Below, in pieces: positions 28,154-33,165 of a stretch of 64,000 bases of DNA; within the stretch, counting starts at the first letter, position 1; each line of letters opens with the position of its first letter. A program made the translations under genes and the position numbers. A model generated the notes under the pieces. It was not told the origin of the DNA, made no database searches, and worked only from the letters and a program-made list of their open reading frames with translations. The DNA comes from the human T2T-CHM13v2.0 reference genome, Homo sapiens, in the NCBI RefSeq assembly GCF_009914755.1, contig NC_060945.1; one strand, given 5' to 3'.

Positions 28154-28218
28154 GAGAGAAACGATCCCAATTAGAGAGTGCCCTGGTACGTTTACTTTTT
28201 TAAAAAAGAACTTATCAG

Positions 28219-28284
28219 AAGAGTACTTTCAGGGATCATTTCTATAGTTCATTACTAGAGAAGTTTCTCTAAACATGTAGAGCA
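28219..28284 (+). pseudogene. SNORD3: U3 snoRNA 5' fragment (about nt 1-68), 5' part of a U3-L1 chimeric retrocopy
   Basis: aagagtactttcagggatcatttctatagttcattactagagaagtttctctaaacatgtagagca vs recalled U3 AAGACTATACTTTCAGGGATCATTTCTATAGTGTGTTACTAGAGAAGTTTCTCTGAACGTGTAGAGCA. Confidence 0.93.
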
Positions 28285-31200
28285 TCAAAACCGCACAACT
28301 ACATGCAAACTGAACAACCTGCTCCTGAATGACTACTGGGTAAATAACAAAATTAAGGCAGAAATAACCAAGTTCTTTGAAACCCATGAGAACAAAGATA
28401 CAGTGTACCAGAATATCTGGAACACAGCTAAGGCAGTGTTTACAGGGAAATGTATAGCACTAAATGCCTACATCAGAAAGTGGGAAAGAAGTAAAATCAA
28501 CACCCTAACATCACAGTTAAAGAAACTAGAGAAGCAAGAGCAAACGAATTCAAAACCTAGCAGAAGACAAGAAATAACTAAGATCAGAGCAGAACTGAAG
28601 GAGTTAGACACATGAAAACACCTTCAAAAAATTAATGAATCCAGGAGCTGGTTTTTTGAAAAGATTAACAAAATAGATAGACCACTAGATAGACTAATAA
28701 AGAAGAAAAGAGAGGAGAATCAAATAGACACAATAAAAAAATGATAAAGGGGATATCACCACTGATCCCACAGAAATACAAACTACCATAAGAGAATACT
28801 ATAAACACCTCTACACACATAAACTAGAAAGTCTAGAAGAAATGGACAAATTCCTGGACACATACACCCTCCCAAGACTAAACAAGGAAGAAGATGAATC
28901 CCTGAATAGACCAATAACAAGTTCTGAAATTGAGGCAGTAAATCAATAGTCTACCAACCAAAAAAGCCCAGGACCAGACGGATTCACAGCCAAATTCTAC
29001 CAGAGGTACAAAGAGGAGCTGATACTGTTCCTTCTGAAATTATTTCAAACAATAGAAAAAAAGGGACACCTCCCTAACTCATTTTATGAGGCCAGCATCA
29101 TCCTGATTCCAAAACCTGGCAGAGACACAACAAGAAAAGAAAATTTCAGGCCGATATCCCTGATGAACATCGATGCAAAAATCCTCAGTAAAATACTGGC
29201 AAACCGAATCCAGCAGCACATCAAAAAGCTTATCCACCATGATCAAGTCAGCTTCATCCCTGGGATGCAAGGCAGATTCAACATACACAAATCAATAAAC
29301 AGAACCAATGACAAAAAATACATGATTATCTCAACAGATGCAGAAAAGGACTGATAAAATTCAAAACACCTTCATGCTAAAAACTCTCAATAAACTAGGT
29401 CTTGATGGAACATATCTCAAAATAATAAGAGCTGTTTATGACAAACCCATAGCCAATATCATACTGAATGGGCAAAAGCTGGAAGTGTTCCCTTTGAAAA
29501 CTGGCACAAGACAAGGATGCCCTCTCTCACCACTGCTATTCAACATAGCATTGGAAGTTCTGGCCAGAGCAATCAAGCAAGAGAAATAAATAAAGGGCAT
29601 TCAAATAGGAAGAGAGGAAGTCAGATTGTCTCTGTGTGCAGACGACATGATTGTATATTTAGAAAACCCCATCATCTCAGCCCTAAAACTCCTTAAGCTG
29701 ATAAACAACTTCAACAAAGTCTCAGGATACAAAATCAATGTGTAAAAATCACAAGCACTCCTATACACCAATAATAGACAAGCAGAGAACTAAATCATGA
29801 GTGAACTCCCATTCACAATTGCTACAAAGAGAATAAAATACCTGGGATTACAACTTACAAGGGATGCGATAAGACCTCTTCAAGGAGAACTACAAACCGC
29901 TGCTCAAAGAAAAAAGAGGGGACACAAACAAATGGAAAAACATTCCATGCTCATGGATAGGAAGAATCAATATTATGAAAATGGCAATACTGCCCAAAAT
30001 AATTTATAGATTAAATGCTATTCTCATCAAGCTAACATTGACTTTCTTCACAGAACTAGAGAAAACTACTTTAAATTTCATACGGAATCAAAAAAGAGCC
30101 TGTGTAGCCAAGACAACTCTAAACAAAAAGAACAAAGCTGGAGGCATCATGCTACCTGCCTTCAAAATATACTACAAGTCTACCATAACCAAAACAGCAT
30201 GGTTCTGGTATCAAAACAGATATATAGACCAATGGAACAGAACAGAGGCCTCAGAAATAACAGCACACATCTACAACCATCTGATCTTTGGAAAACGTGA
30301 CAAGAACAAGCAATGGGGAAAGGATTCCCTATTTAATAAATGGTGCTGGGAAAACTGGCTAGCCATATGCAGAAAACTGAAACTGGACTCCTTCCTTAAA
30401 CCTTATATAAAAATTAACTCAAGATGGATTAAAGACTTATATGTAAAACCTAAAACCATAAAAACCCTAAAAGAAAACCTAGGCAATATCATTCAGGACA
30501 TTGGCATGGGCAAAGACTTCATGAGTAAAACACCAAAAGCAATGGCAACAAAAGCCAAAATTGACAAATGGAATCTAATTAACTAAAGAGCTTCAGCTCA
30601 GCAAAAGAAACTATTATCAGAGTGAACAGGCAACCTACAGAATGGGAGAAATTTTTTGCAATCTACCCATCTGACAAAGGGCTAATATCCAGGATCTACA
30701 GGGAACTTAAACAAATTTACAAGAAAAAAACAAACAACTCCATCAAAAAGTGGGTCAAGTATATTAGCAGACACTTCTCAAAAGAAGATATTTATGCCGC
30801 CAAAAAAAAAAATGAAAAAAAGCTCATCATCACTGGTCATTAGAGAAATGCAAATCAAAATCACAATGAGATACCATCTCAAGCCAGTTAGAATGGTGAT
30901 CATTAAGAAGTCTGGAAACAACAGACGCTGGTGAGGATGCAGAGAAATAGGAACACTTTCACACTGTTGGTGGGAGTGTAAATTAGTTCAACCATTATGG
31001 AAGACAGTGTGGCGATTCCTCAAGGATCTAGAACCAGAAACACCATTTGACCCAGCAATCCCATTACTGGGTATATACCCAAAGGATTAGAAATCATTCT
31101 ACTATAAAGACACATGCACATGTATGTTTATTGCTGCATTATTTACAATAGCAAAGACTTGGAACCAACCCAAATACCCATCAATGATAGACTGGATAAA

Positions 31201-31583
31201 GAAAATATGGCACATATACACCATGGAATACTATGCAGCCATAAAAATGAATGAGTTCATGCCTTTGCAAGGTCATGGATGAAGCTGGAAACCATCATCC
31301 TCAGCAAACTAACACAGGAACAGAAAACCAAACACCACATGTTCTCACTCACAAGTGGGAGTTGAACAATGAGAACACAGGGGCACAGAGAGGGGAACAT
31401 CACACACCGGGGCCTGTCAGGGGGTGGAGGGCAAGGAGAGGGAGAGCATTAGGAAAAATGCCCAATGCATGCAGGGCTTAAAACCGAGATGGGTTGATAG
31501 GTGCAGCAAACCACCATGGCACATGTGTACCTATGTAACAAACCTGCACATTCTGCACATGTATCACAGGAAAAAAAAAAAAA
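28285..31583 (+). mobile_element. 5'-truncated L1PA (about PA7-PA10), ORF2 remnant plus 3'UTR and poly(A)
   Basis: ORF2 fragments ([14 protein letters not shown], [14 protein letters not shown]...KWCWENW); 3'UTR ggagagcattagg...gcttaaaacc; TSD aaaaaagaactt(a/g)tcag shared with the U3 piece. Confidence 0.95.
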
Positions 31584-33165
31584 GAACTTGTCAGAAAGTT
31601 CTGTGGAACCAAAAGTACTTACTATAATTGTTGGTTTGGAGAGGCAGAGGAAGTAGGAGAGGGTGCTGAGGGCATACTTTCCTAACCAATGTCATTGCCA
31701 TGAAGATTTCTGAGGTCTCTGGCTCCTTCTTCCATGCTCAATTCCTTGCGCAGAGCAACTTGGAGGCAAATCATGAAGGCACTGCCTGGTCCAGCCCCTG
31801 GCCCTGGAGGAGGCACTTCCTCCGCCTCCTCTGCTTCCGTGGGGGCCTTTTGGTCTCCATCATGTCAGACTTAGCACTTCCTCCAGCCCAGCATCTAACG
31901 TGGGTGATTTGCACCTTTATTATGAATTGTTTATTCTCTGGGGTATCTATGACCACAGTGTGCAAGTGATATTTCCATTCAAGGACCAAAGAAAAAAAAT
32001 TTTTTTAAACTTTGTTTCCTGAGAGACACATTCCAGGCATCATAGAAGCAACGGGGGAAGGATGGGGACACAGAGAGTCATTGCAGGTAGGCTATGACCC
32101 CGGGAAGAACATCCTTCACACCTGGTAACATTTGTGAGAAGGTGTTTCCTCCAGAAAAAATTAGTTCAGGGACATTTTGCTAGTAAGAGGCCAATTATCT
32201 GTTTGAGGCCACCAACAGAATGGTTGTTTAATTTCTATAACCAAAGCTGACGTCTCATTGCATGATCAGCGATCAGTGCCTGTTATCAACAGCCGCAAAG
32301 GGTCTTACTCTAGGGCTCCGATGCCCGCTCCAGATCCCCTGAATTCTCATCTCACATGTGGCTGGTCAGCTGCAGGAGAACGAGGAGCTGACCTCCACCC
32401 TGTGCTGCTGATGGGAATGGCATTTCCCCACCCTGTGCAGCTCTGGCAGCCTCCCTCTTACCCCTGCTATCACAGCCGCGGAGGCAGGCAGGGAGCTCGT
32501 GACAGCTGGCAAGCCAGCCTCTGGGAATAAAACATTTTAGCACTTCATAAATTTCTAACAAGGTTTCAAATTGCGGCCGTTTCCCTCCTCTCAGCTCCGT
32601 CAACTAGCAAAAGGGGTTGGGGGTGGGGGAAGAAAGACTAATTAAATCTACGGTGGGAAAGCACTGCTGGTAAGATTGCTACTTATTAAAAATCATGAAC
32701 TGTTAGGACCCGATTACAAAGTAAGTTGAAATTCTCCCCATTTTCCCCATACATAAAAATATAAAACAGAGCCTTTCAATTTTATATGTATTTGGTATGT
32801 GTGTATATATATATATATTTTCAAAGGATTAAATACATATCCTTAACAGGATAGCTGATATATGACATTCTTAAACCTAAGGGAAGATGACACATAACTA
32901 ACTAAAATGCTGAGAGACATTCAATATCAATACTGAACATTAACATTGAGGCTTGGTATCATTTACAAAGTAGTTATTTCACATTCTTTTCCCCTGGGAG
33001 TTTTACTGAAAGAAAATGCTTGCTAGAAGAGCATCAAATGGAGAAAACACAGCCTGGAAAGCCTCACCCAACTGACAGCTTCCAAGTTCCAAGTTTTGGT
33101 CACCATCACTAATGTTTTTAAAAAGACAAAACAACAATTCCAAAAAAAAAAAAAAAAAAAACAAC

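What the first reader, a model, noticed from the sequence alone, without database searches (positions are those of the whole stretch)
28202..31594. U3 snoRNA-L1 chimeric retrogene inserted as one unit, with microhomology at the junction
Seen: the first ~68 nt of U3 (28219-28284) are fused in sense to a 3.3-kb 5'-truncated L1PA. One ~17-bp TSD (aaaaaagaactt[a/g]tcag at 28202-28218 and 31578-31594) encloses both, at a canonical TT/AAAA L1 endonuclease site. The junction reads CA-TCAAAACC, against recalled U3 CACCGAAAACC and L1 CACTCAAAACC, so the two donors are near-identical there. Known: snRNA/snoRNA-L1 chimeras are mostly U6-based and U3 versions are rarer; U3 retrocopies typically stop near nt 70. 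The retained part is the U3 5' domain (boxes A'/A) that pairs with pre-rRNA; the box C/D domain is absent. Inference: ORF2p switched template from L1 RNA onto U3 RNA using this homology, a different route from the RNA ligation proposed for U6-L1. The L1 also lacks its last ~15 nt before the poly(A).
Basis: partly seen in the sequence, partly recalled or inferred. Interest (0 to 1): 0.8.

Follow-up and report, generated by a model that had tools for sequence, protein, structure and literature searches.

The report
U3 snoRNA–LINE-1 chimeric retrocopy
A dead copy of the first 68 bases of U3 small nucleolar RNA was pasted into a DSCAM intron together with a truncated LINE-1 element in one event; this kind of chimera is already well described, and the sequence similarity at the joint is probably coincidence.

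Summary
Window 28219-28284 is U3 snoRNA nt 1-68 (Rfam 44.2 bits). It abuts, in sense, a 3,286-nt 5'-truncated L1 (28285-31570) with an A13 tail. One 18/19-matching target-site duplication encloses both parts.

U3/LINE-1 chimeras are a known class. A 2026 catalogue lists 22, none on chr21. In this genome I found 14 sense U3-L1 fusions among 67 truncated U3 copies, and 57 of the 67 end at nt 63-77. That range overlaps the unpaired hinge, nt 65-74.

The two donors do share 9 of 11 bases at the joint. However, the chimera is one base short of that register and exact microhomology is 0 nt. The similarity has p=0.0245 against random L1 positions, and the window is the only one of 9 junctions tested that shows it. 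The class as a whole shows no microhomology excess: 7 nt against 6.47 expected, P=0.45. L1 breakpoints do not recur.

So the single-event chimera is supported, but a homology-guided switch is not shown. Template jump and prior RNA ligation cannot be separated from sequence. The finding is an ordinary new member of a known kind.

The parts
28202..28220 (+). 5' target-site duplication (17-19 bp; the last two A's are ambiguous with U3 nt 1-2), preceded by a T6 run, giving a TTTTTT/AAAAAA L1 endonuclease-type site
   Evidence: family D8 (18/19 identity with 31578-31596); sequence
28219..28284 (+). U3 snoRNA nt 1-68 (5' domain up to the hinge). It has a 2-nt deletion and one substitution near nt 5-7 and five substitutions against the present chr17 gene within nt 8-68. 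The 3' domain is absent.
28285..31570 (+). 5'-truncated L1 (ORF2 from just upstream of the RT domain through the 3' UTR). It has many stops and is about 7% from the centre of 29 L1PA copies. Its 3' end is about 18 nt short.
31571..31583 (+). poly(A) tail (A13). Its last 6 A's overlap the 3' TSD, so at least 7 A's are tail.
31578..31596 (+). 3' target-site duplication
   Evidence: family D8

Best explanation
This is a U3/LINE-1 chimeric retro-insertion made in one L1-driven target-primed reverse transcription event in a DSCAM intron, antisense to the gene.

Shown:
- The L1 endonuclease-type site and the poly(A) tail are present.
- A colinear L1 3' part is joined directly and in sense to U3 nt 1-68.
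- One TSD pair lies around the whole.

Inferred: ORF2p began on the poly(A) of an L1 RNA and copied about 3.3 kb. It then continued on U3 RNA from the single-stranded hinge (nt 65-74) to the capped 5' end, by a template jump that needs little or no homology. The U3 3' domain, closed by the 75-79/213-217 stem, was never copied.

The donor similarity at the joint is most likely coincidental. The element is old (roughly 7% diverged), lacks the U3 3' domain, has a broken ORF2, and has no evident function.

The identity as a single-event chimera is at least 0.9 likely. The confidence given here is for the homology-independent template-jump mechanism specifically.
For: Identity:
- U3 match.
- L1 match and RVT_1 hits.
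- TSD 18/19 at the outer borders, and no direct repeat bracketing the U3 piece alone among the 20 of 27 families shown.

Class behaviour:
- The pattern for U3 nt 10-44 gave 106 hits, against 0 for the reversed control.
- 81 loci were analysed. Of these, 67 are truncated, and 57 of the 67 end at nt 63-77.
- 14 of the 67 are fused in sense to L1, at scattered positions in L094 coordinates of about 120 to 4361. The window sits at 1399 and its nearest neighbours at about 1600 and 1679.
- The published catalogue shows 22 U3/L1 chimeras. By my count, 16 of the 22 rows start at U3 nt 1, 2 or 8 and end at nt 68-76.
- The MFE fold of the chr17 U3 leaves nt 65-74 unpaired between the 5' hairpin and the terminal stem.

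Homology not needed:
- Exact microhomology is 0 nt at this joint.
- The other 8 chimeras tested give extended-similarity p values of 0.39-0.96.
- Summed microhomology is 7 nt against a null of 6.47, P=0.45.
Against: - The two donors share 9 of 11 bases exactly around the joint (p=0.0245), which a pure chance model must accept as coincidence.
- Sequence cannot separate a template jump from prior RNA ligation of a pre-cut U3 fragment. The 2026 paper favours a specific cleavage event (passage).
- Truncated U3 copies followed directly by A-rich tails exist (at least 5 in my crude sort). They fit free U3 5' fragments as well as they fit template jumps.
- The microhomology tests used one L1 copy (L094) and the present chr17 U3 gene as stand-ins for the real donors, and only 9 of the 14 fusions could be tested.
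- No primate orthologue could be examined.
Confidence: 0.45

Rival explanations
1. RNA ligation first. An endonuclease cuts U3 in its hinge, and the 5' fragment (ending near nt 68) is ligated, by RtcB or another ligase, to a 5'-OH fragment of L1 RNA. The chimeric RNA is then retrotransposed by ordinary TPRT.
For: - The U3 end falls in the same narrow range whatever follows it: L1, A-rich tail, Alu or bare TSD. This fits a pre-existing RNA fragment.
- There is no microhomology excess, as ligation predicts.
- PMC13174262 proposes a specific cleavage event producing the U3 fragments (passage).
- PMC6789731 notes that an endoribonuclease cut could give a ligatable end (passage).
Against: - Mature U3 is not known to carry a 2',3'-cyclic phosphate (statement in PMC6789731).
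- No U3/L1 chimeric RNA has been shown in the papers I read.
- The spread of ends over about 15 nt is wider than one cleavage site would give, unless the ends are trimmed.
- The 9/11 donor similarity would be pure coincidence.
Confidence: 0.3
2. One reading: a homology-guided template switch. The nascent L1 cDNA end, complementary to the L1 stretch TCAAAACC, annealed to the similar U3 hinge stretch. Extension resumed one base out of register, or a C was lost later.
For: - The donors read CACCGAAAACC (U3) and CACTCAAAACC (L094 and 28-29 of 29 L1 copies), which is 9 of 11 identical.
- The joint lies inside this block.
- Similarity this strong within +/-2 registers occurs at only 110 of 4491 L1 positions (p=0.0245).
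Against: - The product lacks one C relative to either in-register outcome, so an extra slip or a later 1-nt deletion is needed.
- Exact microhomology is 0 nt.
- Only 1 of the 9 junctions tested shows such similarity, and the chance of at least one such hit among 9 is about 0.20.
- The class shows no microhomology excess (P=0.45).
- nt 68 is an ordinary end for truncated U3 copies without any L1.
Confidence: 0.2
3. Two separate insertions that happen to abut: a truncated U3 retrocopy and a 5'-truncated L1 inserted at different times.
For: Truncated U3 copies flanked by their own direct repeats and lacking a tail do exist elsewhere, for example L014 and L017.
Against: - Only one TSD pair is present, and it sits at the outer borders.
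- There is no tail or repeat between U3 and L1.
- The abutment is exact to the base.
- The same architecture recurs at 13 other loci in this genome and in 22 catalogued loci.
Confidence: 0.03

Closest known systems
U3/LINE-1 chimeric insertions. Buzdin et al. 2003 was seen only as cited in PMC4476161 and PMC1687206. The catalogue is the U3 sheet of Table S2 of PMC13174262, Cell Genomics 2026.
   Same: - Sense orientation.
- U3 starts at nt 1 and is 3'-truncated at about nt 68-76.
- Direct fusion to a 5'-truncated L1PA.
- One TSD, an endonuclease-type site and a poly(A) tail.
   Different: - This chr21 locus is not among the 22 rows of that sheet.
- Its U3 end (nt 68) is at the low edge of the range.
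- Its donors happen to be 9/11 alike at the joint.
U6/LINE-1 chimeric pseudogenes (PMC6789731; PMC4476161)
   Same: A small nuclear RNA copy at the 5' end of a variably 5'-truncated L1, in sense, inside one TSD.
   Different: - U6 is full length and ends in a 2',3'-cyclic phosphate that RtcB can ligate.
- U3 here is cut internally, and no such end is known for it (passages).
Truncated U3 pseudogenes ascribed to self-primed reverse transcription. Bernstein, Mount and Weiner 1983 was seen only as cited in PMC1687206 and PMC4027162.
   Same: The U3 copy stops near nt 70. The fold shows the 3' end pairing with nt 75-79, which would start a self-primed copy at nt 74.
   Different: Those copies are flanked directly by their own repeats, with no L1 and no tail (L014 and L017 here). 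In the window the U3 piece has no repeat of its own and is joined to L1.

Membership tests
U3/LINE-1 chimeric insertion | Non-L1 small RNA copy directly abutting the 5' end of a 5'-truncated L1 | tested here: met
   U3 ends at 28284 and L1 begins at 28285, with no intervening bases
U3/LINE-1 chimeric insertion | Both parts in the same (sense) orientation | tested here: met
   Both are on the + strand
U3/LINE-1 chimeric insertion | A single target-site duplication enclosing both parts, and none around one part alone | tested here: met
   Family D8 is 18/19 at the outer borders. No repeat brackets the U3 piece among the 20 of 27 families listed
U3/LINE-1 chimeric insertion | L1 endonuclease-type target (TT/AAAA) and a 3' poly(A) | tested here: met
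   TTTTTT/AAAAAA at 28196-28207 and A13 at 31571-31583
U3/LINE-1 chimeric insertion | U3 recurrently 3'-truncated near nt 70 | tested here: met
   The end is at nt 68. 57 of 67 truncated copies end at nt 63-77. Table S2 rows mostly end at nt 68-76
U3/LINE-1 chimeric insertion | Both parts appear together in the species alignment, with an empty site in outgroups | not testable with these tools
   No primate genome other than the window's own is held (one search states there are no relatives)
Homology-guided template switch | Bases at the joint that could come from either donor (exact microhomology) | tested here: not met
   0 nt: a unique breakpoint with U3 ending at nt 68
Homology-guided template switch | Donor similarity around the joint beyond chance | tested here: inconclusive
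   9/11 in register -1, p=0.0245 over 4491 positions. This is the only one of 9 junctions tested to show it; the others give p 0.39-0.96
Homology-guided template switch | Excess microhomology across the class | tested here: not met
   Sum of 7 nt over 9 junctions against a null mean of 6.47, P=0.45
RtcB-ligated chimeric RNA (U6/L1 type) | 5' partner is a complete small RNA with a 2',3'-cyclic phosphate end | tested here: not met
   U3 is cut at nt 68 of 217. The end chemistry cannot be read from DNA
Self-primed truncated U3 pseudogene | Truncated U3 flanked directly by its own short repeats, with no tail and no L1 | tested here: not met
   The U3 piece is followed by L1, and the only TSD lies outside both parts

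The most novel reading that the evidence does not exclude
The joint records a slipped, homology-assisted template switch. The L1 cDNA end paired with the U3 hinge over the shared AAAACC block with one base bulged. If so, this locus is direct sequence evidence that U3/L1 chimeras, unlike U6/L1, arise by ORF2p template switching into the hinge rather than by RNA ligation.
Probability: 0.2. Interest if true: 0.4.

Novelty: new member of a known kind. Interest (0 to 1): 0.2.

Why it matters
The locus itself matters little. It is an old, inert retrocopy in an intron, of a class described since 2003 and catalogued in 2026.

Its modest value has two parts:
- It adds a locus missing from the 22-row catalogue.
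- Its joint bears on a question the literature leaves open: whether 3'-truncated small-RNA/L1 chimeras arise by template switching or by ligation.

One junction with marginal similarity cannot settle that question. The survey made here is the more useful result. U3 ends cluster in and around the unpaired hinge whatever the partner, L1 breakpoints are scattered, and there is no microhomology excess. This points to a homology-independent joining step.

Tried and rejected
- Recurrence of the L1 breakpoint: rejected. None of the 13 other sense U3-L1 fusions lies within about 200 nt of the window's site in L094 coordinates.
- A separate TSD around the U3 piece: none among the direct-repeat families listed.
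- Reading the U3 part as nt 1-77, as cmscan and RefSeq do: rejected. TCAAAACC matches 28-29 of 29 L1 copies without change. As U3 it needs a deletion and two substitutions.
- Looking for the locus in print. It is absent from the U3 sheet of Table S2 of PMC13174262 (22 rows). The other chr21 rows there and in files 3 and 4 are 5S, U6 or Alu; of file 4's 41 chr21 occurrences I saw the first 30, which are four Alu rows. Buzdin et al. 2003 is not held, so I cannot say whether it lists this locus.
- A search for 'U3-L1', 'U3-LINE-1' and 'U3 chimeras' returned 2 irrelevant papers.
- Earlier findings of this scan were not open.
- My automatic TSD sort of truncated U3 copies was crude. It found no TSD at 30 of 69 loci, so it is used only for lower bounds.
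- Two loci first counted as truncated (L058, L060) proved to be full-length U3 copies interrupted by an insert, and were removed from the count.
- Of the 14 fusions, 5 were left out of the junction tests. L034 is the reference itself. L021, L046, L061 and L089 did not align cleanly to L094 at the joint.
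Full report
**What is there.**
- cmscan of window 27000-33000 finds one RNA family: U3 (RF00012) at 28219-28293 on the + strand, 44.2 bits against a gathering score of 34, E 1.4e-7. 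RefSeq annotates the same span as a pseudogene.
- The window's own genome could be searched. Its five chr17 U3 genes score 181-199 bits, and I used one of them (L001:1501-1717) as the U3 reference.
- blastn gives 56 of 61 identities between window 28224-28284 and U3 nt 8-68. nt 1-7 are present with a 2-nt deletion and one substitution.
- From 28285 the sequence is L1. It aligns colinearly at 85-87% identity to another L1 (L094, the L1 of a published U3/L1 chimera labelled L1PA7), from that element's position 1399 to its 3' end.
- Two stop-to-stop ORF pieces hit Pfam RVT_1, E 9.5e-11 and 1.3e-9. The longest open stretch is 237 aa, so ORF2 is dead.
- An A13 run follows at 31571-31583.

**One insertion.**
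- The highest-identity direct repeat in 28100-31700 is 28202-28220 and 31578-31596, matching 18 of 19.
- It sits exactly at the outer borders of U3 plus L1 plus tail. Its last two A's coincide with U3 nt 1-2, so the duplication is 17-19 bp.
- It is preceded by T6, so the target reads TTTTTT/AAAAAA.
- No listed repeat brackets the U3 piece alone (20 of 27 families shown), and no base lies between U3 and L1.
- A single L1-mediated event is therefore well supported. The missing test is a primate orthologue, which these tools do not hold.

**The class.** Published record:
- Passages in PMC4476161, PMC1687206 and PMC6789731 describe 3'-truncated U3 copies fused to L1. All cite Buzdin et al. 2003, which I could not open.
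- The 2026 Cell Genomics paper (PMC13174262) catalogues 253 chimeras, 8.5% of them with U3, recurrently truncated and 95.5% in sense.
- Its Table S2 U3 sheet has 22 rows. By my count, 16 rows start at U3 nt 1, 2 or 8 and end at nt 68-76. None is on chr21.

My own census of this genome:
- A 35-place pattern for U3 nt 10-44, with up to 3 mismatches, has 106 matches, against 0 for the reversed control. The table listed 100 of them.
- I analysed 81 loci: the window and L014-L093. The five genes, and 14 places already seen as full length, were not re-fetched.
- Of the 81, 12 are long and 2 are full-length copies interrupted by an insert. The remaining 67 are truncated, and 57 of those end at nt 63-77 by local alignment.
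- Fourteen of the 67 continue directly, in sense, into L1. Others continue into A-rich tails, Alu, or straight into their own TSD (that sort is crude).
- The MFE fold of U3 leaves nt 65-74 unpaired, between a 5' hairpin (nt 5-64) and a stem pairing nt 75-79 with the 3' end.
- The window's breakpoint at nt 68 therefore lies in the hinge where this class breaks whatever the partner.

**The joint.**
- The three sequences, left to right: U3 reads GAGCACCGAAAACC; L094 and the other L1 copies read CTCACTCAAAACC (29 of 29 for CAC-T, 28 of 29 for the next C); the window reads GAGCATCAAAACC.
- The product has one C fewer than any in-register crossover would give.
- A breakpoint scan gives a unique solution: U3 ends at nt 68, L1 starts at T, and 0 nt of exact microhomology.
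- I scored the best ungapped similar segment within +/-2 registers of the joint and compared it with all 4491 usable positions of L094. The window scores 7, p=0.0245.
- The other eight chimeras that could be aligned give p 0.39-0.96. The chance of at least one p as low as 0.0245 among nine is about 0.20.
- Summed donor-donor microhomology over the nine junctions is 7 nt, against a null mean of 6.47 (sd 2.99), P=0.45.
- L1 breakpoints of the 14 fusions are scattered from about 120 to 4361 in L094 coordinates. None is within about 200 nt of the window's.
- Five fusions were left out of the junction tests (L034, L021, L046, L061, L089), for the reasons given under Tried and rejected.
- The stand-ins for the donors (one L1 copy and the modern U3 gene) limit these tests.

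**Mechanism.**
- Shown: an L1-type target site, tail, TSD, and two RNA-derived parts joined head to tail.
- Inferred: TPRT began on the L1 poly(A), and after about 3.3 kb the copy continued on U3 from the hinge to its 5' end.
- Whether the two RNAs were joined beforehand by ligation of a pre-cut U3 5' fragment (PMC13174262 and PMC6789731 raise this) or during reverse transcription by a template jump cannot be read from DNA.
- A scenario in which the cDNA end pairs with AAAACC with one base bulged would reproduce the observed product. It is ad hoc.

**Age and function.**
- Pairwise distances put the window's L1 about 7.1% from the centre of 29 L1PA copies, which themselves lie 2.9-4.8% from it. 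Any subfamily difference inflates this figure.
- With a recalled neutral rate of roughly 2e-9 per site per year, the age is of the order of 30 million years. This is an estimate only.
- The U3 piece keeps only the 5' domain. That this domain carries the pre-rRNA-pairing boxes, and that the missing part carries the box C/D protein-binding domain, is recalled knowledge and comes from no call.
- The piece is a retrocopy antisense in a DSCAM intron. I see no reason to expect function.

**Verdict.** It is an ordinary further member of a described class, and the homology-guided mechanism is not established.

Noticed in passing
L058 (G000:C1:193080695-193081929) and L060 (G000:C4:162857521-162858755): Two loci with unrelated flanks each hold a full-length U3 copy split at about nt 68 by the same insert of roughly 265-275 nt, which has inverted-repeat-like ends. 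U3 resumes at nt 60 after the insert. The two loci are 74% identical over U3 plus insert. They look like copies of a U3 variant that already carried an insert in the hinge.
   Followed up: partly
table (U3 nt 32-34 across the genome): At the three free positions of the pattern, only the five chr17 U3 genes read GTG. Nearly all dispersed copies listed read TTC, TTT or a close variant, including the young copies fused to L1PA2 (L016, L018). The retrocopies therefore derive from a U3 variant that differs from the present chr17 genes.
   Followed up: no
window 31555-31596: The L1 stops about 18 nt before the 3' end seen in L094, L016 and L022, and the A13 tail follows directly. The next L1 bases in L094 would have been GAACTT, which is also the sequence that follows the A run in the TSD. 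This is a 6-nt coincidence that I cannot explain.
   Followed up: partly
window 28285-28293: The RefSeq pseudogene LOC124905066 and cmscan end the U3 match at 28293. These 9 bases are L1 sequence that resembles the U3 hinge, so the annotation overshoots.
   Followed up: yes
L061 (G000:C5:87987730-87988964): Another sense U3-L1 fusion, joined at L094 position about 551. Judged only by the coordinate offset from L034, it has no row in the 22-row U3 sheet of Table S2, so that catalogue is probably not exhaustive.
   Followed up: no
L014, L017, L064, L073, L090: Truncated U3 copies flanked directly by their own 9-22-nt repeats, with no tail and no L1. This is the architecture ascribed in the literature to self-primed U3 cDNA. 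Three of them (L064, L090 and also L085) end near nt 42-43 rather than near nt 70.
   Followed up: partly
window 13507-16221: A second, much older L1 fragment, 67% identical to the chimera's L1 over 2.7 kb, on the same strand.
   Followed up: no
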